From Curvularia clavata (Eukaryota), in NCBI GenBank assembly GCA_023920165.1, contig CP089280.1:1116001-1180000 (forward strand): a stretch of DNA of 64,000 bases. The letters run 5' to 3'. Below are positions 1 through 19,325 of this stretch, piece by piece. Position 1 is the stretch's first letter; each line of letters opens with the position of its first letter. The notes under the pieces were generated by a model. That model had not been told where the DNA came from. It saw only the letters and a program-made list of their open reading frames with translations, and made no database searches. Both the position numbers and the translations under genes were made by a program.

Positions 1-3000
1 GAAGATCTTCTCTTCCGCCCTGCCCTCCATCAAGCACGCTAGCGCCTGCCCCACCTCCTCCAACACCTCCTCCGCAACCCCAATCCACTCCTGGAAGGTT
101 ACAATCTCAATTCCCAACTTCTTTCCTCCTTCCTTAACAAACGCCTGACACTTCCACTCCCGCAGTGGCTCACCGTGCGGATACAGCGTCTCAAACTTCG
201 CCTCGACCCCATTTCCAAACGGCAACTCCTCAACCCACGCCGGCGCCTGATGTACCACCGTATCGAACCAGCGCGTCTTCTCCGGGTCCCAATCCGTGCA
301 ATTCCGCATAATCTCGTCGAAGCCCATGGACTCGTACGCCGCAGATGTGATGTGCTGATCCTGCACGTAGCGCAGGAGATCGAGATACGTCCATGAGGGT
401 GCCAGCGTCGCGCGGAAGGGAATGTACTGCCATGTGGGACCGAAGATGCGATCAGCATTGGGGGCACCCACGTTACGCCCGGATACAACTTCGCCGAAGA
501 CGAGATCGGTGAGGTTCAGGCGCCGCGCGAGAACGAGGGCCCATGCGGCTGTGGGCAGAGAGCCGATGGTGATGTTGGCTGGGCGTGAGGAAATGTCGAA
601 TTCTTTGTATACGTCTGCGGGGTCGCGGTGCGTGAGGGGGATGTTTGGTTTGAGGACGGTCATGGAAGAGCCAGAGAGCAGGTTCTTCCAGTAAGGAATG
701 GCCTTGGGGATGTTGTCGAGGACTACGTGGTTGACGTGCTTGCTGAAAGGAACAGTCTCGGGGACGGGGGTGCCGGCGTAGAGGGCGGAGAGCTGTGAGA
801 AGAGAAGGGGCAGGCAGATCTCGTCGTATTGGGCGTGAGAGATGCGGAATGCGAGAGTAGAGGCGCCAGTGGCGTCAGTGAAGAGGGTGAAGGAGACAAA
901 CGAAGATCCATAGGGCTTAGGTTCTTCAATGTCCTTTTGGACACTTGCTCGTGCGAAAGCATTGATTTCTTCACCTTCTGGGACTGCAACCTCAGAGTAC
1001 GGTACTTGCAGTGACGATATTACCACACCCAGAGTCAGATCGTCGTCTTTGACGAATACAGTGCGCAAAACCTCATTCCGGGCCACGAGTTCCTGGCATG
1101 CTTGTGCGAGCTTCTGTCGATCGATGGGCGTGACGAACTTGATCAGCTCGTAACGCAGCGAGTATCGTGGAAGGTCGACAGTGCCATCAACTGCGAGTTC
1201 CTGCAGTGGCCTCGTCGGGTAGATGTCTGTGATAAACCACTCCTGGTTCTGGAGATAGGCGCCAATGCGGTCGGGAGTATACAGTGAAGCGTCCTTGCCG
1301 AACGCAACGAATGGCGCATCGGTGTCTGCCTTGGGCTGTGACATAGCTGTCTGCTCAGATGTAGAAGCAAGTTCAGCAAGCGACTGGCTCTGGAAAACCT
1401 GTGCCACAGTAATCTTCAGTCCCTGCGCGCGAGCATCAGAGACTAGCCTCATCGCGCCGATGGAGTCGCCTCCCAACTCGAAGAAGCTGTCACTGCTCTT
1501 GATATCAGTCTTAGGCATACCGAGAATGCGACCGAGGATCTCTTTCAACTTGTCTTCCTGCTCATTGCTTGCAGAAGCTGCCAAATCGGATAATGTGCGA
1601 CTGGAAAAGACTTGGGCGACTGTGAAGTTGAGGCCCTGAGCACGAGCGTCAGAAACGAGACGCATGGCACCTATAGAATCTCCGCCTAGCTCGAAGAAGC
1701 TATCACTCGGCTTGATGTCAGTCTCCTTCAGGCCGAGAATGCGACTTAGTATGCTTCGCAGTTTCTCCTCATTTGGCGAGAGTGATTTCAGGCCGGCATC
1801 TCCAGATTCAGGACCGTCAACTGGCGACATGCCTAGCGCGCTATCGGTCATAACATCCTTTGGTCTCATAGCCTCAGCATCTTGGGCCTCTTCTGGATCC
1901 AGGACTGCGACATCGCCTAGTTTGCTTTCGGGGTTACCCAAGAATGCATGAACGATACGATCGAGCACAGCAAGCACCCTCTCCGTGGCTTCCTTGCTGA
2001 TACATTTCGAGTCGAAACTAGCCATGATCAAGAAGCCGTTCTCGTCCAGTGTACAGACAAGCATAAGCGCATAGGTATTGAACTTGAGCGCCTCACGAGC
2101 TGCCTCTGCGTCATCAGCGGGAAGGAATGTGTTTGCAGGAGCATGTTCCATATCAACCTGGCCCCAGTCTTCGTCTTCTTTGGGGTGTAGCACAAGACCG
2201 GTACGAAGATCGCATGCAACACGCGCGCCCTTGCTGAGACGGCGGATATTTTGGAGACCCAAATGCTCGTGGGGAATCTGCTTTACTGTTTGAGCATGCA
2301 CGCTTTGGAGGTATTCGGCAATGGGCCGGTCAAGGGCGAGGCGGACACGGATAGGTACTGTCGTGATCATTGGCCCCTCAATCTGCTCAATACCGTGGAC
2401 AGGGGCAGAGCGGCCGGTGAGGGTCTCGCCGAAGACAATATCCGGATGGCCCATGTAGAGTGATGACACGAGAGCCCATGCGCCGCGGATTATCGTCGCT
2501 AGGGTAAGCTTAGAATGCGCTGATGTAGGGACGGTGACGTAGTGCTCAAGCAGCGAGTCGGCTTGGGTAGTGTAGCCCTTCTGTGGCAGTGGAGGAAATT
2601 GATGAGGGCTTGTGCCTTCTAGACGCTCCTTCCAGTATTTCTGAGCATCGGCTGGGTCCAAGTTTATGAGATGCTTGATGAAGTGCTTGAAAGACGCTGG
2701 TCGCTCGGTGTGGATGCCATTGAAAGCACGATTGATGCGATCGAATACAAGAGGCATCGACCATCCATCATATACCGCGTGATGCATCGTAATGACAAAG
2801 TTTGTCTTGTCGCTTCCATTTTCTTTCACTAGGCCATAGCGGAAAAGTGCTGTTCCTAGATCCATGGGCTCTTTGCGATCTAGTTTGAGGTACTCTGCAG
2901 TATCAGTGCCATGCTCGCGTACTAGCTGTCCATCCTTGAGTACGACCTGGAATAGGCCACGGCCAGAGACGTTGATAATTCTCGTTCGCAGAATTGGCGA

Positions 3001-5902
3001 ACCTTCCACAGCGGTATCAAAGGCTTGTTTCAGGCGCAAGGCCACATCCGATGGAAGCGTTGCAACACGTTGGGCTACGTATGCATCCTGGAACTTGGCA
3101 GATAGGGCAATAAGACCTTCTTGAAGAGGCGTACAAGGATACACATCCTCTACATTTTCAGGCTCAACACCGCACAGTCTTGCGCTCTCCTCCCGAGCTG
3201 TGTTCATGTCCCAGTCCTTTCCAATCATAGAGAAATTGGGGACGTCGTTTGTTTCTTCTGCGGACACTGGCTTGGCCTTCTCGGCCATGGCGGACAGCGT
3301 TGGGTTGAGCATAATATCTGGCACACTCAGCACCAGGCCCTCTTCTCTAGCAGCAGCTACTAGTCTCATTGCTCTCAGTGAGTCGCCACCCATGCTGAAG
3401 AAGTTATCGTTGGCGCTGAAATCCGCATCGCCGCCGAGCAACTTCGCCCAGAGTGCTTGAAGCTTCAGCTCCATTTCCGTTGTAGCCTCTTTCTTCTCAG
3501 ATACAGCCGAATTGAAGCGACGGAGGTCTTGACGAGTAACCGAAGCACCGATCTCGCGCAGCCTCTTTCGATCCGTCTTGCACGAGACAAGTAAAGGCAT
3601 CTTCCAGAGGGGGATATAGGCGCTAGGTATCATGTAACTAGGGAGGTCGACGAAGAGCTGCTTCGTCATGTCTTGGAGGGCACTCTGAAACTTGTTTGTG
3701 AAGCTGCCGAAGACATTGCCGTCGAGGTGACGCATACCGTTCTTCTTCTGTTCGACGATAAAAGCAACCAATGTTTGCTCGCCGCCGCCGCTCGGTTTGA
3801 TGACCTCGGCTGCAAGCTGGGTATCAGGAGGTAGGTGCTTTTGCATGTTGAATTCGATTTCAGCCAATTCAATGCGCTGTCCGCGTAGCTTGATCTGCTG
3901 GTCCTGCCGACCGACGAAAATAGGCTCGCCATCGCCGTCTGGGTCAAAACGAACCAGATCACCCGTCTTGTAAATCCGGCCGTGCCTACCAGGATAACTC
4001 TTGCTTCCCTTGAGCAAGAACTCTGGGTCTTCGATGAAGACTTCTTTTGTCTTGGATGGGTTGTTCAGATAACCATTACCGACGATAGGACCCTCAATCA
4101 GCAACTCTCCAACCGCGCCAACTGGCACTAGCTTGTTGTGGTTGTCAGGTTCGGTGAGCCATAATGCACAACCTTTCCGCTTGCCCATGGTGATGTACGG
4201 TTTGGCAGCTACATTGTCGTTGATTGTGGCACCCACAGTAGCTTCGGATGGACCATAAGCATTCACGACCCTAGTCCTTTTACCCCACGACATGGCATCG
4301 CTTGTAGAAACACCTTCACCTCCTAGCGCAATAGACTCAAGGTGATCCAGGATGTCTACGTCCAGGGTTCGAGCGACTGAAGGAGTCATTCCAGCAAAGG
4401 TGACTCGCATGTCGCGCATCGCGCCACTCATGTCGTTCATGCGTCGCTCATCAGAAGGCGTGCAGAGTGTAGCACCATGCGCAAGTGTGCAAAGCATAGA
4501 GTCGATGCACACATCAAAAGCGTAACTGGCGAAGTCAAGTACGCGAGAATGAGGGAAGTATCCCACAGCTGCAGCGCGTGGTATCGCACCAGACGTATAC
4601 TGGCTGTGCGTGAGGATGCATCCTTTGGGAACGCCGGTACTTCCACTGGTAAACTGAATGTACAACGGCTGATCCGGAGAGACAGGTGGAAGCGCAGTCT
4701 TCGGTTGCTCAGATGCGTACGGAGCATATATTTTCTTAAACTTGGATTCAGATATTGGTATGATGGTGGCAGAGGGTGCCACACGTGCTGCAAGGGTCGA
4801 TTGTGCCGTGGAAGACAGAAACAGTTTGGCGTTTACTTGCTGTACCACAGCTCGCAGTCGGCCTTCTGGCTGAGCCGGATCAAGCAAAGCAAAGCATGCA
4901 CCGGCTTTCATAATGGCCAGCACTGCTACTGACGTCCATCGTGATTTTTCGAACAGCACTGGGATGATGCGGTCTGGCGAGTCGTCCAGCAGTCGCAAAA
5001 GCTGTGCCAGTTCGGTAGAATGTTCTTCCACCTGGCGATATGTCAAAGTGCCGTCCCAGGCATCTATCGCAATCTTATCTGGGTTCAGCGCGGCTTGCTC
5101 GGAAACCTTTTCGTGCATACAGAAGCGAAGTTCAGGCTGCAGAGGCGTATTCCAGCTCCACAGCTCATCGAGCTCATCTTCCGAGACAGTGCGGAAATCG
5201 GCAAGAGGATGATCAACATCTTGAAAAAGGGTATGAAGAATTGAAGCAAAAAAGTGCAGCTGTGAGACAGCTTGGTGCCGTGCCATGGTGTTTGTTTGCC
5301 ATCTTGAGGTGGCATACAAGTGGTCTTCTTGGAGATCAAGTGAGACTTCAAATGTCCACTAAATGTGATTAATGATATATTCGGAGTTTCTTTGTTGTGG
5401 TAAATACCTCTTCATTAGTGCCATCTCTAACGATAATGGTGGTTTCTCCGAACGTGAACTGGGGCGATTTGACGCTGCCAATCTTTGTCCTTAGACTAGC
5501 AGCCGTCTGGTGACTTGCCCAATCGAGTTCGGTGGCAGATATGCATTGTGTACTGTCTTCTCCTTGGTCTTTCAACCCCCAGGTAAATTGGTTGAAGACG
5601 TCTCGTTGGTAACGTTGTACGAGTATTGTCCAGGCTGTTAGAACTGTGTCCAGCACTGAGTTCCGGTCCGTGACGCTGGGTAGATGAACCCGAACCTCAT
5701 TTGCCTTGGCTATGTGCCCGTTAGTGTATGAGGCTCCATTCTGGTCCTCGGAATGTAAAGAATGCTCCTGATCGTCGAAAGCGCTGCTGTTCTGGACCTT
5801 CTTCGCAACATGCTCATCAGTAACGCCGCCAAAGCGTACTGTGTTTTCTCTGCCGTTGGGAAGATGCATCTTGCTCTGCAGACTAGAGTGTGATCTCTTC
5901 AT
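1..5902 (-). CDS. NPS6: Extracellular siderophore NRPS (NPS6/SidD family), architecture A-T-C-T-T-C; 3' end lies just outside the window
   Basis: Exon 1 is 5902-5408 (alternative ATG 5869), intron 5407-5359 (GT..AG), and exon 2 runs 5358-1. Exon 2 is in one frame at every segment I translated; it is missing from the ORF track, consistent with no stop in the window. A-domain motifs: YIQFTSGSTGVPKG (~4620-4665), NAYGPSE (~4245-4265), YKTGDL (~3955-3975). T1: FFSMGGDSL (~3375-3402). C1: MHHAVYDG (~2765-2788). T2 and T3: FFELGGDSIGAMRL (~1660-1700, ~1445-1487). Terminal C: SHAQYDE (~820-840). The last visible codons read LMEGRAEEKIF. Confidence 0.93.
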
Positions 5903-6342
5903 GTCCAAGTCGATATATGCGTTCCGCACGTCGGAGGATTGAATATAATGTTGATCCTCGAAGCGCACGGCTCAGAAATCCAAACTTTAGTAGACGGGTC
6001 AAACGCACACCACAAAGGCCACGCACCCTGTACGCCCTCTATTCAGCTTACATCCCGCAGTTAGGCCTAGCTCTCCACACACCGTCTTGGGGTGAAGCCC
6101 CGGCACACCCAACCACCAGTCCAGCCTGGGCTCTTGGTCGGACAGCAGTCGGCGTCATTTCTGCTGTTGCATTAAACACGAGGGCAAATTCTGCTCATCC
6201 GCACCGGGAAATTCCTAAAGTCGGCTACATTGCTCATGAGCTAACGTAAGTCCGCAGGGAAGGGCCCCATTCATAGCAATACCATGGTTTAGTCGTAATG
6301 AAAACTCGCCTCATGATGAATATTCACCCCCACATTTAGCGG

Positions 6343-8098: not shown

Positions 8099-11000
8099 TC
8101 ATCCCAACATTTGGTGAAGTGCATTGACGCGGTAGCTCTCGCTGCGTTGCACGAGCTCATCGTGTCGGCCCTGGTCTACAACTTTTCCTGCTTCGACCAG
8201 GAATATCACATCTGCCCTTGCAATTGTCCTGAGCCGGTGTGCAATAGCAATGACCGTAACCCCCTGGCCTTTGACAGCACGCTCAAGGCCGAGTTCGAGG
8301 GCCTTTTCACTCTCTGCATCAAGCGCACTTGTGCTTTCGTCCAAGAGAAGTAATTTAGGCTTCCGTACGAGTGCTCGAGCGATAGAAAGTCGTTGGCGTT
8401 GCCCGCCAGAAAGCTGGTTGCCGCTTGATCCACACTCGGTGTCGTATCCTTGAGGAAGGTCCATAATGGTGTCGTGGATGTTTGCCAACTTGCAAGCTTC
8501 ATGTATCTCTTCGTCTGTTGGGGTATGGCCTGGCCTCGCTCCTAATGCGATGTTAAACTTGATGCTTCCTTGGAAGAGCACATTCTCTTGTGGCACGTAG
8601 GCAATATCGTCCCGGAAGGAGGTGCCATGGTGACGTGAGATATCGGCCCCGTTGATGAAGATATTTCCCGAAGAAGGACGATAGAAGCGCTCCAAAAGAG
8701 CCAACACCGTGCTCTTTCCCGCTCCAGAAGGTCCTACTAACGCGCAGAATTGACCTGGCTGTATTGACAGAGACAAAGACGTAAGAACTGGGACCCCAGG
8801 ACGAGCGGGATAAGCAAAGCCCACGTTTCTGAAAACCACACTGGCACCACCTTGTGCCAATACAGGTGATGTAGACTCAACAGGTGCTTCGATGTCATTT
8901 CCCTTCTCCTCAAGGTCCTGGCCAGATGTTGCCTTTCCGTTTCTGACGCCGGATGCATCTGTACCTAGCTCGATAAGACCACAGATGCGTGAGACGGCAC
9001 TCTTCGCCTTCGCAATTTCGGGAGCGAGGGTGAACAGCTGACCCCAGAGCTGAGCAGAGACAAGCATAGCTATGAGGATGATGAAGAACTGGGTCTGCGT
9101 ATACCTCCCTTCGACGATATTCTTAGAACCCCACCAATAGGCAAAGGCGTAGATGAAGCTGCCGCAAGAGTTGGCGACAGCTAGCCATACGTTGGTCTTG
9201 AAACTCTGGCGTACCATTTCCCTCCTCGGAGCCTTGAGAGATCTGCGATACGTCTGTAAGATTTCATCCTCAATTGAGAGAGCATGCACAGTTTTGATGT
9301 TCGACACGGCTTCAATCGTGACACCGATAGAAGCCGAGAACGCCCCAGCGTGCTTGACCGCGAAACGCCCGATTGCGCGCAATTGCATGTATCCGGCCCC
9401 TAGAAGCAACGGTACAATAACCAGGCAAACGATCGCGATGCGCCACGCGATGATGTGGGACAGAACAATAGCCGCAACAAAATTGACAATCACAGAGAAC
9501 AAGGTTCCGATGATGGAGCCACTGAAACCTGCTAGTGAATTTCCGTCTTTGGTAATGTACTCCAGTAACATCGATGGGGTTCTTGACTCGGACTCATGCC
9601 ACTGCAGAGGTTGGTGCAATAGTGTCTGCAGCGATAGATTACGAACTTTGTAGATCAGTCGCTCCGAGAGAAGCCCAAATGCTGCCCAGCTGGTGAAATT
9701 TGCAAGGAAAGAGACGCAAGCCAGCATGAACCAAAGTCCCGAAAGTAGCTCGCCTCGCGATCTAATATAGTCTGGCTCATTGCAGGGAGACATGAGGCCC
9801 ATGATGTTGCCAAAGAGAAGACCGGAACCGCAATATTGACCACCGACTATCAACGCCGCGAAGAACGCCAATACGATGAGAAGTGCGTACGGACGAGTTA
9901 AGGGAAGCATTGTTTTGCGGATAGAGCCGGGAACAACGGCACCTTTAGTTGGTTCGGCGGGCTCCGGTGCATTCGGTTCGGGTCCGGTTGTGGCATCGGC
10001 TTCTTGTGCTTGCAGCATCTGCTTTTCGACTGAGATGGTGTCTGCATTATGCGATTCCAGGCTGGTCCTAGAGCTTGACGGCCCACCCTCGGCTTTGACA
10101 GTTTGAAGATTGATCATGTCTGCATATGATCCCTTCTTTTCCATGAGTTGATCGTGAGTTCCCTGTTCCACGATATCACCCTTCTTCATGACAATGATCT
10201 TGGAAGCAGCCTTGATCGTCGAGAGTCGATGAGCAATTGAGATGACTGTTCTTCCTTGAGAAGCGCGCTCAATGGCTGTCTGGATACGCTGTTCACTTGC
10301 CGAGTCCAGAGCTGCAGTTGCCTCATCCAGGATCAGGATCCTGGGGTCACGAACGAGGGCTCGAGCGAGGGCGATACGTTGCTTTTGTCCACCGCTGACC
10401 AGGCTACCACTGGAGCCGACGGTGGTTCCAAAACCAAACTCTAGCCGATCAATAAATCCAGCCACATCAGCAAGTTCAGCAGCGTGCTGCACAAGTTGGA
10501 CGATCTCCACAACCTGAACATGGTAAAATTAGTAAAACGGTCTCTGAAAACGGAAATCTCTCAGAATGCAGCGTACCTCTTTTCCGGCTTTTTCTGCCGC
10601 CTTGCTCAGTTGACATCCATTCCTGACATTCTCAGCAACCTGGGTGAGAACACCACCGAGCAAGGTCTTCTCTAGATGAGCATGAGGAGGGGAATTGACT
10701 AAGCCGAGAGCAATGTTTTCAAGGATGGAACGATCCAAGAGTGACGGCTCTTGTTGCACAAGACTGATAAAACCACGAAGGTTTCTGACATTGATGTCTT
10801 TGATATTGCGGCCATCAAGAAGCACTTCACCTGCTTGTGGGTCATAGAAACGGCTGATCAAACTCGCTACCGTCGATTTTCCACTTCCAGAAAGGCCAAC
10901 AATGGCGGTCAACTGGCCTGTAAGAGAAATTCAGTCAGCATGTTGCTAGATAGATTAATTTGTGGCAGCAAGGAAGAGAAGTCATTCGAGATGTGCTTTG

Positions 11001-12321
11001 CTCGAAGGATCTTCAAGAGGCTGGAGATATTTCGGGAATATTGACGGATAAGTAAGGTTTATGGATGGTGGGTCACACGTACCGGCTTCGCACTTCAATG
11101 AAATATTGTTCAACACAGGATGGTCAGGCCTGGACGTGTACGTAAAAGCGACGTTACGAAACTCGACCTCTCCTTCAACATTAGTAAGTTTCTCCGCAGA
11201 AGCCGAAGTGTTATCGATGGTGGGCTCGGTTTCGATATCTTTTCGCAAGCGCTCGAATGCAGCAATTGCACCTCCGAAAAGTGGTAACATAGGCGCAACT
11301 TGACTGAGAACGATAGCACCTAGATCATTCGCGTTAGTGTAAATATTTGAGGAATGATAGCATTTTTCATACCATCTAAAAGGATAAACACAACAGTATA
11401 TATCTCTCCAATGGTTGCATTTCCGTTGCCCTCGAGAGTATCTGCGACTCTGCGACTACCCTGCCAGTAACCTAAGGCACTAGCTGAGAAAGCGAAGAAG
11501 TAGAGCAGTCCAGCCTGGATGGCAGCGGCTGTGGCCTTCTTGGTGCCCTGCTCCCGGGCATTCTCCAGATGCCCCTTGAACTTTTCTTCGAGTCTGGTGT
11601 TGGCTCCAAGAGCATGCACCAGGCCCACGTGGCTAAGCGCTTCGGATGCGATGGCGCTGGCGGATCCAAAACTTTCACCCAGCTTAGCGCTGTACTTTCC
11701 TACAAAATGCCCACCAATAATCGCCATGAGCAGGAATGCAGGAATCAGGGATACAAGCATGCCTGCTAACTCAGCATTCTTGATGAAACCGACGATGTAC
11801 GCGGTGACACAGAAGGAGATGCATGTGAGAGCAACGCCGACCTTTTCACCAGTGCCACTTTCGATTGCCTGGATATCGCCGTTGAGGCGGGAAGACACTT
11901 CGCCAGCCTGGAGATTGTCGAAGAAGTTCATATCCTGCCGCAGCAGATTCCTCAGGTAGCGATCCCGGACACGCTGGGCTAGTCTTTGGGAGGCCAAGTT
12001 CCAACACACTAAATGTGTGTAAATGCAAACAAAGCTAGCGATGGCAATGTAGACCAGCAACAGAATCTTGGGCGTAATATTGGACTCCTCAGACCCTGTG
12101 GAGCTGCCAGTTCGGTTGTTGCAGGTGGCCGTGTTGATCTCGTCGACCAATTGTCCAAAGACGATTCCGATGAGTGGAAATGGCACGCCTGCCGCTATGG
12201 AGGCTATGCTGCCAACGAGAATGAGTATCTTGTCGAGCCATGTCGGATCCGCATAGAAGAGGAGGTGGAGGAAGCCGAAGAACGGCTTAATAGAGGCCCG
12301 CGAGGGCATGCTGATGGGCAT
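8099..12321 (-). CDS. Full-length ABCB/MDR-type ABC transporter (SitT-like siderophore-cluster exporter), 1313 aa
   Basis: Exons 12321-11373, 11319-11083, 10917-10577, 10513-8099. TMD-NBD-TMD-NBD layout with Walker A GLSGSGKS and GPSGAGKS, signatures VSGGQKQR and LSGGQRQR, Walker B ILILDE and LLLLDE. Confidence 0.93.
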
Positions 12322-12639
12322 TGAGCATACAAAGATTGCTCAGCTGCTTTCAAGGAGGTGTCTCTTGCCACACGCTGCTGTCATGAAGCTGTGCGAGAGC
12401 ACCTGCATAAGGACACCTGGGCGCCATGGCCGCACGGAGCTACGACGGCCAGGATCGACACGGGCCCTGGAAATTGCTCGCATCGCGTTCAGTGGAAACA
12501 ATGTCACGTGAAATTCATAGCGTACAGCAGTGCCAGTGTGGGCTGCTTGGAAGTGGAGAAGAGACGTGTGTTGTGTTACTTGGCACTGGGATGCGGTCTA
12601 CATTGGCTCCGTGCTCGGCCCTCGTCGATTAGTCAGAAG

Positions 12640-12648
12640 ATCAGATAA
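12640..12648. promoter_or_regulatory. SreA/Sre1 box upstream of the ABC transporter
   Basis: ATCAGATAA at 12640-12648, about 320 bp upstream of the ABC start codon (12321, minus strand). Confidence 0.7.
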
Positions 12649-12700
12649 AATTTCGCTAGCGCTACCCCGTTTTCGATACCGGCCATCCATGCCGTCCCGT

Positions 12701-14002
12701 CTACATCCTTGCCTGCACCTGTACCGGTGATGCAGCTCCATCCCCTACCTCCTTGGACCCTGCGGACGCCTGACGCACAATTTCTCCTGCCATTAGTGAA
12801 ATATCCTTGGCCAAGGTTCGCCCCCCGTCTGACTTTGAAGACACCAGCCAGAGCCGGCATCCTTGTGCAATAGCGCCGCGCTTGAATTGCACCTCTTCCA
12901 GGCTCTCTCCCTTGGGCCGGCAGCCTAGTATGATTGAGTCTATGCTCTGGAACAGCGCACTGTTCGAAAAGGGACTTGTCGCCGTGTCCCTAATGATCAA
13001 GTCGGAACGCGAGCAGGCTGCGGAGGCGTCTTTTCCGATAATGACATGCAGCCTAAACTCGCCCTTGGACTGGACTTGCTTCTCATATGCACGCATGTAA
13101 ATCGTCCGAATAGGCTCTGGTGCTTCGGTAACAGGTGGTATCTGGCAGCTGGTTGGCTTCGCCCAGATTGAGCACAATTGAGCCTGTGGGAGCTTTGCGT
13201 CGTCCAAAATCTTTAGTGACGCAAACGAATCATCCTCCGTCACCACTGTGATGTTACCCAGACGAGGGCACGATAGCAGGTCGTCCACTATCTCCACCGT
13301 CTTCTCGCCGGAACCGACCACTGCCACGTTCAGTCGAGGCTCGTTGTGACTTCGCAGTTCGTTCCTTCGTGTAGGATAGTCGTCCATGGAGATAATGCGC
13401 TGGCCTGCTAGGAAATCTGTCGCTGGTAATGGTTGTGCGGCGATTCCACTTGCTCTCGATGGCGACGGTGCTACGATACTTCGTGTTCGCACCATCCATG
13501 TTTTCCCAGTATTGTCCTTGATGGCCACCTTCCAACGCTGCACAACATCTCCCTCGGCCTCTGGGGCTACCCCAATAACTTCGTTACCATAGCGTACATC
13601 GTCCTTGAAGTGTTCGGCACACCACCTCATATAGTCGGCAAATTCCTCCCTCAAAGGATTGAGACGATCCGAGTTTGCAAACTCGATAAGACGCTTGCGA
13701 TTGAGTAGGTAGTTAACGTAACTGAAGGCTGTCCTCGGGTTTCGGAGCGTTGCTAAGTCGTACATAAACGGAGTTTCCATTCGAGTCCTTGACAAGTTGG
13801 AACTTGAGCCCCATGCAAACGAAGGCTTTTTTTCAACGAACAGCACTTTGGATGGTGTCCGAGATTCGCTATTCGCAATGGCTGTGGCTAACTGCGCAGC
13901 TCCGAAGCCAATGCAAACGAGATCATACCAGGGAGCGGGTTGCGCAAGCGGTGAATTCGGTGTTGCGTCCATAGCGCTGCTTGCTCCTTCAGCCGAAGTC
14001 AT
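12701..14002 (-). CDS. L-ornithine N5-monooxygenase (SidA/IucD family)-like protein with degenerate active site and PTS1-like C-terminus, 433 aa
   Basis: Intronless ORF from ATG 14002. The N-terminal half aligns by eye with SidA (DLVCIGFG, DLATLRNPR, EFADYMRWCA, VAVVGSG), but substrate and cofactor motifs are altered or missing. Ends in ARM. Confidence 0.85.
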   Translation of the reverse strand: MTSAEGASSAMDATPNSPLAQPAPWYDLVCIGFGAAQLATAIANSESRTPSKVLFVEKKPSFAWGSSSNLSRTRMETPFMYDLATLRNPRTAFSYVNYLLNRKRLIEFANSDRLNPLREEFADYMRWCAEHFKDDVRYGNEVIGVAPEAEGDVVQRWKVAIKDNTGKTWMVRTRSIVAPSPSRASGIAAQPLPATDFLAGQRIISMDDYPTRRNELRSHNEPRLNVAVVGSGEKTVEIVDDLLSCPRLGNITVVTEDDSFASLKILDDAKLPQAQLCSIWAKPTSCQIPPVTEAPEPIRTIYMRAYEKQVQSKGEFRLHVIIGKDASAACSRSDLIIRDTATSPFSNSALFQSIDSIILGCRPKGESLEEVQFKRGAIAQGCRLWLVSSKSDGGRTLAKDISLMAGEIVRQASAGSKEVGDGAASPVQVQARM

Positions 14003-14583
14003 CTTTTGTGAATTTTGGTAAACTAAGAGCAGGTTCGACTGCTGTTGTGATAAGAAATGGTGCGTCTGAAGGAATCTGATACGACACCAGTATTTTAATC
14101 TCTCCTCACAGCAACAATGCACAACTCAGTCACAAAATGAAAAAGGTCCGCGCTTTGGCTAGCCATGGCCAGACATACCGATATCCAGGCTCAAAACAAC
14201 GATGTCACCGAAAACTAGCGTCGCTGGCATGGATGCGCCACAAATGCAGGCCGCATACGAAAGCCTGCATGGGTGTGTAGAGGTGTCAGACCAAGACCCA
14301 CATGGTGTGATCAGCCATCCACTCGGTACATTCTCCATGGTACGACCACCCCACGCGAAGGCTAGCTTTTCTTTGCCCGTCGATGGGTAACATATCCGTC
14401 TAAGCCTACGTATTCCATGGCCCAAGCTATCCCTGATACTATATACAACCTCGGTTAGAGATCCACAGGGCCTGACCGTGCAAACTTGAATGTCTTCAAG
14501 CATCACGTCGCTGCTACCACAGGGTCGTATATACAATCTTCTTGGATCGCCTTCTCTTTCATCATTAACTCTAATCTCTCACA

Positions 14584-15959
14584 ATGGCACAACCAACAAA
14601 ACCATCTACGGCGCAGGAACCGTTTGTTCTCAAACTCCCTCACCCATACCTTACCACATACGCAATCACCAATGTCGCACCTGAAGGAAAACCCATCAGT
14701 TACAAGATCAGGCTATCCCCAGCAGACACCGCTGCTAAGGAAGTAGCACCGCCAGTTGTACTGCACAACGAAACTGTTTCGTTTAGTGATATTGGCTCTC
14801 TGAGCCAAGACACAGTGCCGCCTTTGGGGGACAACAGCTCTTGGGCTCGCGCTCGAAGATCACCCCATGTAACTGTCAGCTGGGACCAAGATAGACCTAC
14901 AGTTCCGCAGCTTTGGCTCATCGCTTATGCGCTGGTCTCGCTACATCCCTTGGTAGAGAATTTCCGCGTTGTCCTCTCCGGCAAGGATTCGCAGTCACTA
15001 GCCCATGATTTATATGTCACTGGCCTTTTCCACCCGCATCCTAAGCCTTCCCGAGCAGAAGCACCTCAAGATGGCCATCTTCTCTTCCGAGGCACATTTT
15101 GGCAGGGCGCTGCATCTCCATTTGGAACCCGCCCAGTGTGGGCACCACACCTCGATGCCTCAGGCAAACCAGCTAGCAGACAGTACCCCCCCTTCCCATT
15201 CCAGAATGCACCATCTACTCAGTTCCCAGCTGTGCCGCGGCATACTATGCATCCTGTTAGAGAGCCAAAGCCACAACCCGGATCAATCATCTACAGCCGA
15301 TGGATACCACATCTGAAGGAGCACTTCACCATGGTCGCCCTCGACTACAAGAATGATGAGCATCTCCGCTTATTCAACAAATGGCAGAACGACCCACGTG
15401 TTGCTGCTGGCTGGAATGAGACTGGCACCCTTGATCAGCATCGGGAATATCTTCGAAAGCTGCATGAAGACCCCCACGTTCTCACCATGTTCGCTGCATT
15501 CGACGACGTTCTGTTCGCTTATTTTGAAGTCTATTGGGCGATGGTAAGCTAATCTTTACCCTGGTTTTTTGCAATTACGTACTAACACTGACATAGGAGG
15601 ATCACATGGGTGCTCACTACCAGTCTTCGCCCTACGATCGCGGAAGGCATTCCCTGGTAGGTGATGTAAGATTCCGAGGGCCGTACCGTGTCTCTGCATG
15701 GTGGTCAGGCCTAATGCACTACATGTTCCTGGATGAACCGCGCACTTGGAATTTGGTTGGCGAGCCAGCAGCAACAAGCAGCACTGTGTTGGCTTACGAC
15801 TTTGCCCATGGTTTCCATGTCGAAAAGCTAATGGACCTTCCACATAAGCGAAGTGCACTCATGATGGTCAACAGGGAGAAATTCTTCACCCTGAGCCCGT
15901 TCACATGGGATGGAGAGAAGAAAGTAAGGCCAAGCCTCGACGCAGCCGCCAAATTGTAG
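14584..15959 (+). CDS. sidF: N5-hydroxyornithine:anhydromevalonyl-CoA acyltransferase (SidF/IucB-AlcB family), 440 aa
   Basis: Exons 14584-15543 and 15597-15959. Motifs FWQGA, HPVREPKP, WQNDPRV, FAYFEVYWA-ED, DRGRHSLVG, FLDEPRT, DLPHKRS. C-terminal PTS1 AKL. Confidence 0.9.
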
Positions 15960-16223
15960 TTCACCGCAAAGCGCCTTGATTTTGATACCTCACAATAGCT
16001 TGATCAATCAATTCACACAATAATACGAGATGTTATCCGCTTGACGACCACATGTGTCTTTTGCTAGTTGCTCACAAAGTTCACAATTTCTGGAACGTGC
16101 CTGGCATCGCCGGTTACCGAGAAGCCCACTCGTGCGACCCATTAGACAGCATTAGCATTACTGTCACGAAAAAATCTCGGCAGATGATACCTGGACCCGT
16201 TGCGCCCCACCAGCAGGCTGCGG

Positions 16224-16701
16224 ATCAGATATTTAACCGCAAAATTTTATCAGATCTGCCCTGTGCGTAGCGCCCCATGAACGTATACAGGCCAAGCAGA
16301 CTCGAGCCATCTGATTGCCCCAGCATTCACGCACTAAATGCAACTGACGAGTGTGAAGCAGTGTGGTGGATCATCACACGTAACGGCATTGCAGTCGGCC
16401 AACCCCAATGATGCAGCACTCCACTCCACGCTGCCAACTAGTCCATTGCTCCGCGAAAAAAATTTACTCGACGCGCCGACATGACGTGATAATGCCTGAT
16501 GAGGCAGGCCCATGGAGGTGATAACGCTCCAGGACGCATGCCCAGCCGCTAGGCCTCCACGTAATGTCTCTTGGAGGGCCTAGTTTTGATCTGATAAAAA
16601 TTTGATCTGATAAAATTTTACTCTGCTAATGCACGGCCACACACGGCATTCACCGACATCGCACTATAGGAGTACGTGAGCTATGAGTAATCTTATCAGA
16701 T
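16224..16701. promoter_or_regulatory. Cluster of SreA/Sre1 boxes upstream of sidI
   Basis: TTATCAGAT 16247-16255 and 16693-16701 (reverse orientation); ATCTGATAA 16589-16597 and 16605-16613; near-match ATCAGATAT 16224-16232. Confidence 0.85.
16585..16615 (+). repeat. Tandem 16-bp duplication TTTGATCTGATAAAA(A), each copy carrying a SreA box
   Basis: TTTGATCTGATAAAAA at 16585-16600 is immediately followed by TTTGATCTGATAAAA at 16601-16615. Confidence 0.9.
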
Positions 16702-17355: not shown

Positions 17356-19325
17356 ATGGCGGAACTGTATGATCAGTCTCGCAACGACGCTCTGCGGCGT
17401 CTCAACCAAACACTCCTCCAAATCGACCCTTACGATCTCCCGCCATACCCAAACCTCTCTATAGTCACAGGTCCACTCGATCCACCGCTTGTTCAATTAA
17501 CACTATCACAACTACTACAACAACAAGCCTCATGTTATCCCAACGAAGAAGCCGTCGTCATACCATGGACCAATGCGCGTTGGACGTACCAAAAGCTATG
17601 GGAAGAGTCGAGCCTGTTAGCAAGAGCACTTTTGAAAGAAGGAGTAAGACCAAGAGATAGGATAGGCATCATGAGTGGGAACTGTGAAAAGTACATTGCA
17701 TTGTTCTTTGCGTGCGCAAGAGTGGGGGCGATATGTGTTACACTCAATAATACATATACTGCAACTGAGATGGAGTATGCGTTGAAGCACACCAGTACGT
17801 TCTCAACTCGAAGTCAACTCTAGGCAGACGTTGGAAAACTAATGAAAGCAGAGTGCAGAATATTGTTTACTACGCCAAATATTGCCCGGTTCGACAACAT
17901 GCCGTTGCTCGAACGACTGAGTCAAAAGGACATAGTATCGGCTCTTCCAGATCTCAAGAGCGTATGTCTGATACGAGGTCAACATGGCTCATTCGTCCCG
18001 TACTCTTCTTTCATCGACAATGCACAATATATCCCTGAACATATCCTTGACATCTTTGACGGCATAATAAGTCCGCATGACGTTGCCAACCTCCAATTCA
18101 CAAGTGGTAGCACAGGAAAGCCAAAGGCAGCAATGCTAACGCATCAGTAAGCCTCTTTTTCTCTACCTTCTGACTTCCGCATATCGTGATAAGGTGATAG
18201 CTAACATACCCACTCCTAGCAACCTGATCAACAACTCACGCTTCATCGGCGACCGCATGCAGCTCACCCCCTCAGACACACTCTGCTGTCCACCTCCCCT
18301 CTTCCACTGTTTCGGCCTCACCCTCGGTGTCCTCGCCGTCTTGACTCACGGCTCCACCATCGTCTTCCCAGCCGAATCCTTCGACCCCGTCGCTTGCATG
18401 GAGGCCATAGCCGCCGAACAATGTACCGCTCTACACGGTGTTCCCGCAATGATGGAATCGATAATGGACGTTCCACGTCCAGATGGGTGGCAAAGCAAAC
18501 TCCGGACAGGCATCGTAGCAGGCAGCCCGGTGCCCAAATGGCTCATGGAGCGCATGGTCTCCGAACTAGGCATGACAGATTTCACGTCTTCGTATGGCCT
18601 CACCGAAGCAAGTCCTACCGTATTCAACGCGCATACTACTGACTCGCTGCATGCGCGCTTGACGACTGTTGGTACCGTGCTGCCGCATGCCAAAGTCAAG
18701 ATCGTGGATCGAAACGATCGCATTGTGCCAATTGGTATAAGAGGCGAGCTCTGCGTCGCGGGATACCAGGTTTGTCGCGGGTACTGGGAGAATCCCGAGA
18801 AGACTGCAGAGCTCATCGTCAACGATGAGTATGGAGAGCCTTGGCTCCATACGGGTGATGAGGCTGTGCTGGATGTAGATGGGTATTGCACTATCACTGG
18901 TCGGTTCAAGGATATCATCATCAGGGGTGAGTTATGTCTACGCAGCTTTTGATACTGCTTTATTCGTTTTTCGGTGCAGCGATACTAACATAGAGAAAAT
19001 AGGAGGCGAGAATATCTATCCCCTTGAAATCGAAGAACGACTCGTTGAGCACCCGTCCATTACGCGTGCCATCGTTGTCGGCGTGTCACATCCGCGCTAT
19101 GTAGAGGTTCCTGTTGCTTTCCTTCAACGCGAATCAAGCATGGACAAGCCTGATCTAGTAGAGGTACAGGCATGGGTAAGGAAAGTTTTGGGTAGACACA
19201 AGGCACCTGTGCACGTTTTCTGGCTGGGAGAGGACTGTGACGGCGAAGTGCCGCTTACGGGCAGTGGGAAAATTAAGAAGTTTGTGCTGCGAGATGTCGC
19301 AGAGAACTTGCTGAAGAAGGAGTAA
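17356..19325 (+). CDS. sidI: Acyl-CoA ligase, mevalonyl-CoA ligase SidI type, 587 aa
   Basis: Exons 17356-17794, 17852-18146, 18220-18926, 19003-19325. ANL motifs LQFTSGSTGKPK, PPLFHCFG, SYGLTE, LHTGD, GRFKDIIIRGGENIYP, LTGSGKI. N-terminal PTS2-like RLNQTLLQI. Located in the siderophore cluster. Confidence 0.88.

What the first reader, a model, noticed from the sequence alone, without database searches (positions are those of the whole stretch)
12701..14002. Intact but catalytically degenerate SidA-like protein with a PTS1-like tail: possible peroxisomal pseudo-enzyme partner of SidF
Seen, against A. fumigatus SidA motifs recalled from memory and aligned by eye: GFGPAS becomes GFGAAQ; AWHSGM becomes AWGSSS; MQISFIKDLA becomes METPFMYDLA (ornithine-binding Lys107 to Tyr, Gln102 to Glu); GSGQSAAE becomes GSGEKTVE. 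There is no recognisable FVNEIF (Asn293), TNYS (Asn323), ATGY or HGLSDSLLS (Ser469). Yet the 433-codon ORF has no stop or frameshift, keeps the DLATLRNPR..EFADYMRWCA scaffold, ends in ARM (fits PTS1 [SAC][KRH][LM]) and is head-to-head with peroxisomal sidF. Established: SidA is a homotetramer reported as cytosolic, SidF/SidI/SidH are peroxisomal, and peroxisomes import oligomers piggy-back. Inference: it is not an ornithine hydroxylase and may have been retained for another role. Options are co-importing an active SidA encoded elsewhere, binding or channelling N5-hydroxyornithine to SidF, or a new redox or tailoring reaction. I recall that a second sidA-like gene near NPS6 was noted in Cochliobolus (unverified), so any novelty is in function rather than presence.
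Basis: partly seen in the sequence, partly recalled or inferred. Interest (0 to 1): 0.8.

Follow-up and report, generated by a model that had tools for sequence, protein, structure and literature searches.

The report
Peroxisome-tagged, remodelled SidA paralogue in siderophore cluster
This is a conserved, expressed copy of the fungal ornithine hydroxylase SidA that sits in the secreted-siderophore gene cluster, carries a peroxisome-import tail and has swapped out every ornithine-binding residue, so it probably does a different, still unknown job in iron-chelator synthesis.

Summary
Window 12701-14002 (-) is an intact, intron-less 433-codon ORF. It ends in ARM and lies 581 bp head-to-head with a sidF homologue ending AKL.

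It is a family, not a local oddity:
- 120 listed orthologues (55-93% identical) come from Pleosporales-type Dothideomycetes, and 119 of 120 end A[RK][MIL].
- Gene order sidI<-sidF<-|->this->ABC->NRPS holds in every metagenome locus with enough flank.
- dN/dS is 0.06-0.12, like sidF exon 1.
- Contigs from 4 of 4 runs that hold spliced sidF also cover the ORF.

Profile and fold comparisons show the whole N-hydroxylase fold is retained. The FAD fingerprint is kept. All four ornithine contacts, the NADPH selector R/K279 (now E/D), FATGY and HGLSD are gone, and the replacements are themselves at least 93% conserved. A canonical SidA without a PTS1 coexists in nine named species.

Best reading: a neofunctionalised, probably peroxisomal flavoprotein of the NPS6 pathway. 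It is neither an ornithine hydroxylase nor a decaying pseudogene. Binding to SidF or SidA remains untested. Six full-text searches found no description of it.

The parts
12701..14002 (-). Single-exon CDS of the SidA-like paralogue (433 aa plus stop)
   Evidence: ORF list. PF13434 at 170 bits. Contigs of 4 runs cover it with no joint or indel. 120 listed orthologues.
12701..12712 (-). Codons for A-R-M plus the stop: a PTS1-type C-terminal tripeptide
   Evidence: Translation. Tails among 120 homologues: ARM 63, ARI 49, ARL 5, AKI 2, other 1. Residues 418-433 are modelled below pLDDT 50, i.e. as a flexible tail.
13892..13909 (-). FAD dinucleotide fingerprint GFGAAQ (residues 32-37)
   Evidence: Translation. 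Across 104 family rows: G32 in 104, G34 in 95 (Ser in 9), Q37 in 104.
13760..13777 (-). Pocket segment E76..Y81, the counterpart of SidA Q102..K107
   Evidence: Alignment to 4b63. Y in 102 and F in 2 of 104 rows at the K107 position; E in 83 and D in 16 at the Q102 position.
13235..13315 (-). Second Rossmann beta-alpha-beta: GSGEKTVE (230-237) to E256 at the end of strand 2
   Evidence: Across 104 rows: G230 in 104; G232 in 77 with Ser in 24; E237 in 104. The SidA R/K279 position is E in 97 and D in 4. Strands 226-229 and 251-255 and helix 233-243 appear in the model.
12806..12820 (-). R395..K399 in the C-terminal helix, the counterpart of SidA D465..S469
   Evidence: R in 99 of 104 rows; K in 100 and R in 3 of 104. 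Coordinates checked.
14003..14583 (.). Divergent promoter shared with sidF, with a conserved element GATGTCACC at 14201-14209
   Evidence: The 8-mer ATGTCACC occurs at the same relative place in 12 of 15 aligned promoters. No exact ATCWGATAA lies here in the window or in any locus.
14584..15959 (+). sidF-like N5-transacylase gene: two exons, intron about 15543-15595, product ends AKL
   Evidence: PF13523 on both exons. A 53-nt GT..AG joint 15542->15596 appears in contigs of 4 of 4 runs. The spliced product is 440 aa and matches the orthologue consensus.
17356..19325 (+). sidI-like acyl-CoA ligase gene (several exons) with an N-terminal RLNQTLLQI
   Evidence: AMP-binding domains. The same nonapeptide is listed as the PTS2 of the P. 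nodorum SidI in PMC3709128 (passage).
8099..12321 (-). ABC transporter gene directly downstream, on the same strand
   Evidence: ABC_membrane and ABC_tran domains. It follows the paralogue in all 15 loci with enough downstream flank. An ATCAGATAA motif lies at 12640-12648 in its upstream region.
1..5971 (-). NPS6/SidD-type NRPS gene (runs off the window)
   Evidence: AMP-binding, Condensation and three PP-binding matches. It lies downstream of the ABC gene in 10 loci.

Best explanation
The ORF encodes a neofunctionalised paralogue of the ornithine hydroxylase SidA. It belongs to the NPS6 (coprogen-type, secreted) siderophore cluster of Pleosporales-type fungi.

Shown here:
- It is a real, expressed, single-exon gene under purifying selection.
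- It is fixed in position, head-to-head with sidF.
- It keeps the complete two-Rossmann N-hydroxylase fold and the FAD-binding fingerprint.
- It carries a conserved C-terminal A-R-[M/I/L].
- Every SidA residue that holds ornithine is replaced or lost: K107 to Y, the N293 and N323 loops lost, S469 to K.
- The basic NADPH 2'-phosphate selector has become an acid (R/K279 to E/D), and the FATGY and HGLSD motifs are gone.
- A canonical SidA is present elsewhere in the same species.

Inferred:
- It is imported into peroxisomes through the PTS1 receptor, beside SidF (AKL) and SidI (PTS2).
- It still binds FAD. Because the substituted pocket residues are themselves almost invariant, it also binds a small ligand other than ornithine in the SidA pose.
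- The second Rossmann motif with an acid at the end of strand 2 fits NADH (abundant in peroxisomes) better than NADPH. Some lineages have weakened this motif.

My commitment: it is a ligand-binding flavoprotein serving the peroxisomal acyl-hydroxyornithine branch (SidI/SidH/SidF) through changed redox chemistry. It is not an ornithine N5-hydroxylase and not an inert relic. The substrate is not known.
For: Family and tail: 216 homologues at E <= 0.001, and the best 120 are all 55-93% identical. Of these 120, 119 end A[RK][MIL], against 3 of 119 canonical SidA hits.

Synteny: sidF lies divergently upstream in 18 of 18 loci with more than 480 nt of upstream flank. The ABC gene lies downstream in 15 of 15 loci with enough flank. 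Locus tags are adjacent in three named genomes.

Selection: 22 of 22 complete loci have intact ORFs ending ARM or ARI. NG86 dN/dS is 0.059-0.125 in 13 pairs. Controls from the same loci: sidF exon 1 0.067-0.086 and the ABC N-part 0.036-0.088.

Expression: in 4 of 4 laid runs a contig carries sidF with its 53-nt GT..AG intron removed, and contigs of the same runs cover the whole ORF without joints or indels.

Fold: hhalign probability 100 with E 3e-65 and E 1e-79. Foldseek to SidA gives E 4e-28, TM 0.65. VIA-align gives Z 25-28.8 with 335-354 residues aligned at rmsd 3.2-4.0, spanning model residues 21-420.

Residues, 104 family rows against 26 canonical:
- Kept: G46, E83 and D108 in 104; R144 in 103; W90 in 101.
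- Replaced: K107 by Y in 102; Q102 by E/D in 99; R/K279 by E/D in 101; D465 by R in 99; S469 by K/R in 103.
- FVNE, TNY and HGLS fall in gaps.

The roles of K107, N293, N323, S469 and R279, and the NADH preference of the R279E variant, come from passages of PMC7347517 and PMC10696468.

Canonical SidA with all motifs and no PTS1 is found in 9 species that also have the paralogue. In A. alternata a Lys/Orn monooxygenase gene lies beside nps2 (PMC7046739 passage).

Peroxisomal SidI, SidH and SidF, and the P. nodorum signals, are described in PMC3709128 (abstract in the listing; passages).
Against: - No localisation, cofactor or activity data exist. The PTS1 is inferred from the tripeptide alone, and M or I at the last position is less canonical than L.
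- The second Gly of the NAD(P)H motif is Ser, Asn or Thr in 27 of 104 rows. The S257 position varies (Q 66, K 18, R 10). The ATGY positions differ between lineages. A strictly conserved nucleotide site would not be expected to tolerate this, which favours a non-catalytic reading.
- The model is below pLDDT 50 exactly where SidA's active-site loops would lie (270-274, 282-284, 341-347, 391-396).
- The family evolves about four times faster than canonical SidA between the same genera: Alternaria-Pyrenophora path 0.40 against 0.09.
- The divergent promoter has no exact SreA-type ATCWGATAA, unlike the three other intergenic regions of the cluster.
- The runs' RNA status is a guess by the tool. In X1 and X3 one contig runs through the promoter, so DNA carry-over is not excluded.
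- The window's own genome could not be searched for a canonical sidA.
Confidence: 0.5

Rival explanations
1. It is still an N-hydroxylase of ornithine or a close amino-acid relative. The pocket is rebuilt, with Lys399/Arg395 taking over carboxylate binding from Lys107. It is re-tuned to NADH and makes N5-hydroxyornithine inside the peroxisome for SidF, while the canonical SidA feeds ferricrocin.
For: - Whole fold and FAD fingerprint are kept.
- Acid at the R279 position in 101 of 104 rows, and SidA R279E prefers NADH (PMC7347517 passage).
- New invariant basic residues at the D465 and S469 positions.
- Conserved PTS1-type tail and fixed pairing with sidF.
- The canonical gene sits beside nps2 in A. 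alternata, which would fit a division of labour.
Against: - All four ornithine contacts, invariant in 26 of 26 canonical rows, are gone.
- N323/Y324, which also position the nicotinamide ribose, have no counterpart.
- FATGY is lost and varies within the family, and G255 is lost in 27 of 104 rows.
- N5-hydroxyornithine is thought to pass the peroxisomal membrane freely (PMC3709128 passage), so the need is not obvious.
Confidence: 0.2
2. It is a non-catalytic pseudoenzyme. It either forms mixed oligomers with canonical SidA and carries it into peroxisomes by its own PTS1, or it binds SidF and hands over N5-hydroxyornithine.
For: - Catalytic and substrate residues are lost while purifying selection holds.
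- The NAD(P)H motif is weakened in part of the family.
- Canonical Pleosporales SidA proteins have no PTS1 (13 of 13 checked).
- The divergent promoter is shared with sidF.
Against: - SidF has its own PTS1: AKL here, and PTS1-like in 39 of 46 full-length homologues.
- The substituted pocket residues are nearly invariant, which a mere scaffold does not require.
- No evidence of any contact was obtained.
Confidence: 0.2
3. It is a decaying or functionless duplicate that merely persists in the cluster.
For: Long stem branch (2.02 changes per site) and evolution faster than canonical SidA. Loss of classical motifs.
Against: - 22 of 22 complete loci are intact.
- dN/dS is 0.06-0.12 in both halves, equal to sidF exon 1.
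- The tail is kept in 119 of 120 homologues.
- Spliced-RNA-bearing runs cover the ORF.
Confidence: 0.02
4. It is a tailoring flavoenzyme acting on the acyl side or on the finished siderophore, for example hydroxylation of the anhydromevalonyl group as in the hydroxycoprogens of Alternaria.
For: - Remodelled, conserved pocket with new basic residues.
- Cluster membership.
- A. alternata is reported to make coprogens and hydroxycoprogens (PMC10146468 passage).
Against: - The gene is present across the whole order, whereas I know hydroxycoprogens only from a few species (recalled, not checked).
- The class B monooxygenase motifs needed for oxygen transfer are degraded.
- Nothing links it to any particular product.
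Confidence: 0.08

Closest known systems
A. fumigatus SidA (L-ornithine N5-monooxygenase; PDB 4b63, 6x0h and others)
   Same: Same fold over the whole length: Z 25, 354 residues aligned to 4b63, rmsd 4.0; hhalign probability 100. It shares the FAD fingerprint, E83, W90, D108, R144 and the DLATLRNPR and EF.DY..WCA stretches. It serves the same pathway.
   Different: - Only 25-30% identical.
- K107, N293, N323 and S469 are replaced or lost, and R279 is replaced by Glu. FATGY and HGLSD are gone.
- About 70-100 residues shorter than canonical fungal SidA.
- Carries a PTS1-type tail.
- Forms its own clade on a stem of 2.02 changes per site.
- Clustered with sidF and NPS6 rather than with nps2.
Diamine N-hydroxylases such as SsDesB and DfoA
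   Same: They are members of the same fold that also lack the positively charged and H-bonding anchors for an amino-acid substrate (PMC10696468 passage). Z is 23.6-23.9 to the model.
   Different: They are bacterial and bind NADP+ in the solved entries (titles). The fungal family has an acid at the 2'-phosphate selector and new Lys and Arg residues in the pocket, so it is not a simple diamine-type pocket.
Peroxisomal siderophore module SidI/SidH/SidF (Gruendlinger et al. 2013, PMC3709128)
   Same: The neighbours here carry the same signals as that paper lists for P. nodorum: RLNQTLLQI on SidI and a PTS1 on SidF. This protein adds a fourth PTS-bearing product at the same locus.
   Different: The passages returned by my term search of that paper name three peroxisomal enzymes and no SidA-like protein, and they imply that N5-hydroxyornithine is imported. 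I did not read the whole text.
Second clade of SidA-like paralogues in Venturia, Aureobasidium, Rhizodiscina, Tothia, Microthyrium, Exophiala and Phaeomoniella
   Same: They also lack K107, N293, N323, S469 and H91, and coexist with a canonical SidA in at least three named species. Three of the eight rows examined end ARL.
   Different: It is a separate clade with 99% SH-aLRT support. ATGY is kept in 4 of 8 rows and the closing G-Y in 7 of 8. The substituted residues differ: Q, N, D, S or R at position 107, and no Lys at position 469. Their gene neighbourhood was not examined.

Membership tests
Flavin-dependent N-hydroxylating monooxygenases (Pfam PF13434, SidA/PvdA/IucD) | Sequence match above the family's gathering score | tested here: met
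   170.1 bits against a cut-off of 21.3, but over profile positions 3-228 of 339 only. Canonical controls score 325 and 360 bits over 2-337 and 2-338.
Flavin-dependent N-hydroxylating monooxygenases (Pfam PF13434, SidA/PvdA/IucD) | Whole two-domain fold | tested here: met
   Z 25-28.8 to EtcB, PvdA, KtzI and SidA, with model residues 21-420 aligned. hhalign probability 100 over residues 1-433.
Flavin-dependent N-hydroxylating monooxygenases (Pfam PF13434, SidA/PvdA/IucD) | FAD fingerprint (GxGxx plus an acid at the end of strand 2) | tested here: met
   G32 in 104 of 104 rows, G34 in 95 of 104, E57 in 104 of 104. Actual FAD binding was not testable.
Flavin-dependent N-hydroxylating monooxygenases (Pfam PF13434, SidA/PvdA/IucD) | NADPH site: GxGxxA, Ser257, and a basic residue at position 279 | tested here: not met
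   G255 is kept in 77 of 104 rows. S257 is replaced by Q, K or R. R/K279 is replaced by E in 97 and D in 4 of 104.
Flavin-dependent N-hydroxylating monooxygenases (Pfam PF13434, SidA/PvdA/IucD) | FATGY-type motif | tested here: not met
   ATGY (A, G and Y in 26 of 26 canonical rows; T in 22, S in 3, V in 1) aligns to D/E-T-x-x, which varies within the family.
L-ornithine N5-monooxygenase (SidA orthologue) | Ornithine contacts Lys107, Asn293, Asn323, Ser469 | tested here: not met
   Y81 at the K107 position; gaps at N293 and N323; K399 at the S469 position. The residues' roles come from passages of PMC7347517 and PMC10696468.
L-ornithine N5-monooxygenase (SidA orthologue) | Orthology to characterised SidA | tested here: not met
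   It forms a separate clade with 100% SH-aLRT support on a stem of 2.02. A true orthologue with all motifs is present in 9 of the same species.
L-ornithine N5-monooxygenase (SidA orthologue) | Ornithine hydroxylation activity | not testable with these tools
   Needs an enzyme assay.
PTS1-imported peroxisomal matrix proteins | C-terminal tripeptide of the type (S/A/C)(K/R/H)(L/M/I) on an accessible tail | tested here: met
   ARM here. 119 of 120 homologues end A[RK][MIL]. The tail is modelled as disordered. The consensus quoted in PMC8273606 ends in L only; M and I at the last position are variants I recall as functional.
PTS1-imported peroxisomal matrix proteins | Peroxisomal localisation dependent on the tail | not testable with these tools
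   Needs microscopy with and without ARM.
Pseudoenzymes | Catalytic or substrate residues lost while the protein stays under purifying selection | tested here: met
Pseudoenzymes | No catalytic activity of any kind | not testable with these tools
   The conserved replacement residues in the pocket argue for ligand binding but cannot decide the question of catalysis.

The most novel reading that the evidence does not exclude
Pleosporales-type fungi have added a fourth, previously unrecognised peroxisomal protein to hydroxamate siderophore synthesis. It is a SidA-derived flavoprotein whose pocket and nucleotide site were rebuilt for the peroxisomal milieu. It would either run on NADH, making or modifying the hydroxyornithine unit inside the organelle, or act as a PTS1-bearing carrier that draws cytosolic SidA in as a mixed tetramer. 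In both cases the whole acyl-hydroxyornithine branch, not only SidI/SidH/SidF, would be peroxisomal in these crop pathogens.
Probability: 0.2. Interest if true: 0.8.

Novelty: new variant of a known kind. Interest (0 to 1): 0.6.

Why it matters
- NPS6 siderophores are described as virulence and oxidative-stress determinants in Cochliobolus, Alternaria and Fusarium (passages of PMC9854754 and PMC10146468). An order-wide, selected and expressed gene at the centre of that cluster with no assigned role is a gap in a pathway often treated as complete.
- Public databases name the family 'L-ornithine N5-oxygenase'. The residue evidence says that label is probably wrong. Expression or knockout studies that pick 'SidA' by name in these fungi may be looking at the wrong paralogue.
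- It gives a clean natural case of an enzyme fold kept under selection after every substrate contact was exchanged, combined with a change of compartment.
- It makes two questions directly testable: how hydroxyornithine supply is organised between cytosol and peroxisome, and whether a class B flavoprotein can be re-tuned from NADPH to NADH.

Tried and rejected
- A search of the window's own genome for a canonical sidA was not possible: no genome is held. Coexistence therefore rests on nine other named species.
- Earlier findings of this scan, looked up by place and by sequence, returned nothing.
- The look-up of sequencing runs listed no holder on record as RNA. The runs were then laid directly.
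- In X9 and X11 the promoter 14078-14585 has little or no cover. This is not used as evidence of separate transcripts.
- Complex prediction on the P. tritici-repentis paralogue (P0013) with its SidF (P0409) scored 0.00 in both runs against a mark of 0.34, so the verdict was no answer. No statement on binding follows from this.
- Oide 2006 (PMC1626607) and Lee 2005 (PMC1087798), which might mention the gene beside NPS6, are not held.
- Six full-text searches found no description of this paralogue, and neither did the passages returned by term searches in PMC8273606, PMC7046739, PMC3709128, PMC11380514, PMC9854754 and PMC2644324. Supplements were not opened.
- NCBIfam gave only a far sub-threshold match: TIGR04439, 75.6 bits against a cut-off of 700.
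- The ESM Atlas returned only NMO clusters.
- By eye I first placed ATGY at 'LGCR'. The profile alignments put it at 'RDTA' instead.
Full report
**1. The observation.**
Window 12701..14002 on the minus strand is an ATG-started ORF of 433 codons with no stop or frameshift. Pfam finds the Lys/Orn N-oxygenase family PF13434 at 170 bits, but only for residues 26-263, which is profile positions 3-228 of 339. A phmmer search of solved structures finds A. fumigatus SidA (4b63) at E 1.4e-34, again only for residues 25-258.

- GFGPAS becomes GFGAAQ.
- AWHSGM becomes AWGSSS.
- MQISFIKDLA becomes METPFMYDLA, so K107 becomes Y81 and Q102 becomes E76.
- GSGQSAAE becomes GSGEKTVE.

The protein ends ARM. The next gene upstream starts 581 bp away on the other strand. 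It is a two-exon GNAT of the SidF/IucB type ending AKL.

**2. The neighbourhood is the secreted-siderophore cluster.**

| Window coordinates | Strand | Gene |
|---|---|---|
| 1-5971 | - | NPS6/SidD-type NRPS |
| 7498-8061 | + | small GNAT ORF |
| 8099-12321 | - | ABC transporter |
| 12701-14002 | - | this gene |
| 14584-15959 | + | sidF-like |
| 17356-19325 | + | sidI-like acyl-CoA ligase |
| 21772-23010 | - | MFS transporter |

The sidI-like N-terminus contains RLNQTLLQI. That is the same nonapeptide listed as the PTS2 of the P. nodorum SidI in Gruendlinger et al. 2013 (PMC3709128, passage).

The SreA-type motif ATCWGATAA (PMC2610380, passages) occurs 9 times in the window, against 0.94 expected. 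All nine lie in three intergenic regions of the cluster. None lies in the promoter shared by this gene and sidF.

**3. It is a family.**
The large protein collection holds 216 homologues at E <= 0.001. The best 120 are 349-500 aa long and 55-93% identical over essentially the whole length. Their source names come from Exserohilum, Alternaria, Pyrenophora, Plenodomus, Parastagonospora, Ascochyta, Massarina, Lophiostoma and others.

By my knowledge these genera are nearly all Pleosporales. Of three I looked up, two are Pleosporales and Lizonia is filed as Dothideomycetes incertae sedis.

In the library clustered at 50% identity only six representatives match the C-terminal half. All other hits (1123 in total at E <= 0.001) match residues of about 25-260 only.

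**4. The tail.**
Of the 120 homologues, 63 end ARM, 49 ARI, 5 ARL and 2 AKI. The one that ends otherwise carries the word 'partial' in its source name. Position -3 is Ala in 119 and position -2 is Arg in 117, while the 10-15 residues before the tail vary.

Among 119 canonical SidA hits only 3 end in a PTS1-like tripeptide. Among 46 full-length SidF homologues 39 do.

**5. Synteny, intactness, selection.**
One scan of metagenome contigs returned 27 loci. Some are near-duplicates (L003/L004, L005/L006, L016-L018).
- In all 18 loci with more than about 480 nt of upstream flank, sidF lies divergently upstream.
- In all 15 loci with enough downstream flank, the ABC transporter follows. The NRPS comes after it in 10.
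- Adjacent locus tags for the two proteins appear in Coniothyrium glycines, Plenodomus biglobosus and Pleosporales sp. CAS-2024a.
- All 22 loci whose match is complete encode uninterrupted ORFs of about 416-437 aa ending ARM or ARI. The other 5 are cut by contig ends.

Nei-Gojobori dN/dS was computed for the 13 pairs with dS between 0.03 and 1.2. All 13 lie among L001-L006, effectively four lineages.

| Gene or part | dN/dS |
|---|---|
| This gene, whole | 0.059-0.125 |
| This gene, N half | 0.047-0.074 |
| This gene, C half | 0.059-0.124 (one low-divergence pair 0.32) |
| sidF exon 1 | 0.067-0.086 |
| ABC transporter, N part | 0.036-0.088 |
| sidI, N part | 0.008-0.037 |
| sidF exon 2 | 0.004-0.013 |

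This excludes a decaying pseudogene.

**6. Expression.**
No run is on record as RNA. When four runs from four studies and three coded organisms were laid on 12300-16100, every run had a contig in which the 53-nt GT..AG intron of sidF is removed (joint 15542 to 15596). These runs therefore hold spliced RNA.

In the same runs, contigs cover the whole ORF of this gene with no joint and no indel:
- X1: 12566-15542 within one contig.
- X3: 12636-15542.
- X11: 12625-14058 in two contigs.
- X9: 12700-14131 in pieces.

Caveats: contigs give no strand, ends or level, and in X1 and X3 the contig also runs through the promoter.

**7. The whole fold is kept.**
- A profile of 32 family members aligns to a profile of 18 canonical enzymes with probability 100 and E 3.3e-65, over 17-419 against 10-459.
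- A second, global run with 104 against 26 rows gives E 1.3e-79 over 1-433 against 1-500.
- The AlphaFold2 model has mean pLDDT 77.4 and pTM 0.67.
- The model matches SidA by Foldseek (E 4e-28, TM 0.65).
- By VIA-align it matches EtcB, PvdA, KtzI and SidA at Z 25-28.8. Between 335 and 354 residues align at rmsd 3.2-4.0, spanning model residues 21-420.
- The model is below pLDDT 50 at 183-200, 270-274, 282-284, 341-347, 391-396 and 418-433. Most of these segments lie where SidA has its active-site loops, and the last is the tail.

**8. What was kept and what was exchanged.**
A. lentulus SidA (P0370, 501 aa, motif positions as in 4b63) served as the ruler. Counts are family rows out of 104. The canonical rows are invariant (26 of 26) at every position listed except 279, which is K in 14 and R in 12, and Thr405, which is T in 22.

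| SidA position | State in the family |
|---|---|
| G46 | G 104 |
| G48 | G 95, S 9 |
| E83 | E 104 |
| W90 | W 101 |
| M101 | M 98 |
| D108 | D 104 |
| R144 | R 103 |
| G253 | G 104 |
| E260 | E 104 |
| K107 | Y 102, F 2 |
| Q102 | E 83, D 16 |
| S51 | Q 104 |
| H91 | H 75, G 15, Y 9 |
| G255 | G 77, S 24, N 2, T 1 |
| S257 | Q 66, K 18, R 10 |
| R/K279 | E 97, D 4 |
| D465 | R 99 |
| S469 | K 100, R 3 |
| FVNE 291-294, TNY 322-324, HGLS 461-464 | gaps |
| ATGY 404-407 | D/E-T-x-x |

The literature passages I read say the following (PMC7347517; PMC10696468):
- K107A abolishes hydroxylation.
- N293A, N323A and S469A weaken ornithine binding.
- N323 also contacts the nicotinamide ribose.
- S257 positions NADP+.
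- R279 binds the 2'-phosphate, and R279E prefers NADH.

The pattern is therefore: FAD site kept; ornithine site exchanged for a different but conserved set of residues; NADPH selector inverted to the acid typical of NAD(H)-type Rossmann folds (the last point is textbook knowledge, not a call). The nucleotide motif is weakened in about a quarter of the family.

**9. A canonical SidA coexists.**
A search with a canonical Dothideomycete SidA (P0133) lists full-length SidA proteins of 514-537 aa from nine species that also appear in the paralogue list:
- Pyrenophora tritici-repentis
- Coniothyrium glycines
- Pleomassaria siparia
- Ophiobolus disseminans
- Ampelomyces quisqualis
- Massarina eburnea
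- Decorospora gaudefroyi
- Neocucurbitaria sp. VM-36
- Lizonia empirigonia

It also lists SidA from Bipolaris sorokiniana and Alternaria.

Thirteen Pleosporales-type canonical proteins were checked. All 13 have GFGPAS, F[ML]KD[ML], GNGQSAAE, ATGY and HGLSDTLLS, and 12 of 13 have FVNEIF and GTNY. None has a PTS1-like end. In A. alternata a Lys/Orn monooxygenase gene lies beside nps2, the ferricrocin synthetase gene (PMC7046739, passage). The window's own genome is not held, so coexistence in this very organism is inferred.

**10. Origin.**
In a quick maximum-likelihood tree of 55 rows the family is one clade with 100% SH-aLRT support, on a stem of 2.02 changes per site. It includes an unnamed 46%-identical member, P0122. 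It attaches near the base of the fungal SidA group, and the long branch makes the exact place unsafe.

Between the same genera it changes about four times faster than canonical SidA. The Alternaria-Pyrenophora path is 0.40 against 0.09.

A second, separate clade of SidA-like proteins also lacks the ornithine contacts. It comes from Venturia, Aureobasidium, Rhizodiscina, Tothia, Microthyrium, Exophiala and Phaeomoniella. ATGY is kept in 4 of its 8 rows, the closing G-Y in 7 of 8, and its substituted residues differ.

**11. How it most likely works.**
Shown:
- A selected, expressed, cluster-fixed SidA paralogue.
- An NMO fold with the FAD fingerprint.
- A conserved PTS1-type tail.
- An exchanged pocket.

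Inferred:
- Import into peroxisomes, where SidI, SidH and SidF work (PMC3709128; abstract in the listing, passages).
- Binding of FAD and of a ligand other than ornithine in the SidA pose.
- A link to NADH rather than NADPH.

I put 0.5 on this 'neofunctionalised peroxisomal flavoprotein of the acyl-hydroxyornithine branch'. The rivals are:
- 0.2: it is still an ornithine-type hydroxylase with a rebuilt pocket.
- 0.08: a tailoring enzyme. A. alternata is said to make hydroxycoprogens (PMC10146468, passage).
- 0.02: a relic.

The variable nucleotide motif and the lost FATGY are the main points against any catalytic reading. The near-invariant replacement residues are the main point against a mere scaffold.

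**12. Comparison and novelty.**
By homology and fold it belongs to the PF13434 superfamily. It fails the tests for an L-ornithine N5-monooxygenase (four of four contacts, and orthology) and for the NADPH and FATGY features of class B N-hydroxylases. Databases nevertheless call it L-ornithine N5-oxygenase.

Six full-text searches found no description of it, and neither did the passages returned by term searches in six papers. Two older Cochliobolus papers are not held, and supplements were not opened, so an earlier mention cannot be excluded.

I rate it a new variant of a known kind, with interest 0.6.

Noticed in passing
proteins P0128, P0138, P0140, P0144, P0145, P0147, P0154, P0158 (not in the window): A second, separate clade of SidA-like paralogues occurs in Venturia, Exophiala, Phaeomoniella, Rhizodiscina, Aureobasidium, Tothia and Microthyrium. 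It also lacks K107, H91, N293, N323 and S469. ATGY is kept in 4 of 8 rows and the closing G-Y in 7 of 8. Three of the eight end ARL. Canonical SidA coexists in Rhizodiscina, Phaeomoniella and Aureobasidium melanogenum.
   Followed up: partly
proteins P0272/P0130, P0342, P0349, P0352 (not in the window): Some fully canonical SidA proteins carry PTS1-like ends. The Histoplasma SID1 product ends ARL. Three of 119 canonical hits (Xylaria, Astrocystis) end AKL or AKI.
   Followed up: no
window 6343-6810, 12640-12648, 16247-16701: The SreA-type motif ATCWGATAA occurs 9 times against 0.94 expected. All nine lie in three intergenic regions of the cluster: before the NRPS and GNAT genes, before the ABC transporter, and before sidI. 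The same regions carry it in the related loci.
   Followed up: partly
window 14201-14209: A conserved element GATGTCACC lies about 200 bp upstream of the paralogue's ATG in the promoter shared with sidF. Its core 8-mer is at the same relative place in 12 of 15 promoters. This promoter has no exact ATCWGATAA in any locus, so it may be controlled differently from the rest of the cluster.
   Followed up: partly
window 7498-8061 (+): A GNAT acetyltransferase ORF (PF13508, PF00583) lies between the NRPS and the ABC transporter. It is a candidate N2-acetyltransferase of the coprogen pathway.
   Followed up: no
window 12566-15940: In runs X1 and X3 a single contig spans the paralogue, the 581-bp divergent promoter and spliced sidF. 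This could mean overlapping head-to-head transcripts or DNA carry-over.
   Followed up: no
window 20296-21489 (+): A 397-codon open frame between sidI and the MFS transporter has no Pfam match.
   Followed up: no
proteins P0122 and P0493 (not in the window): The only distant family member (46% identical, 399 aa) and a 62%-identical SidF homologue both come from a Logan contig of 10,599 bases. The pairing may therefore extend beyond the main family.
   Followed up: no
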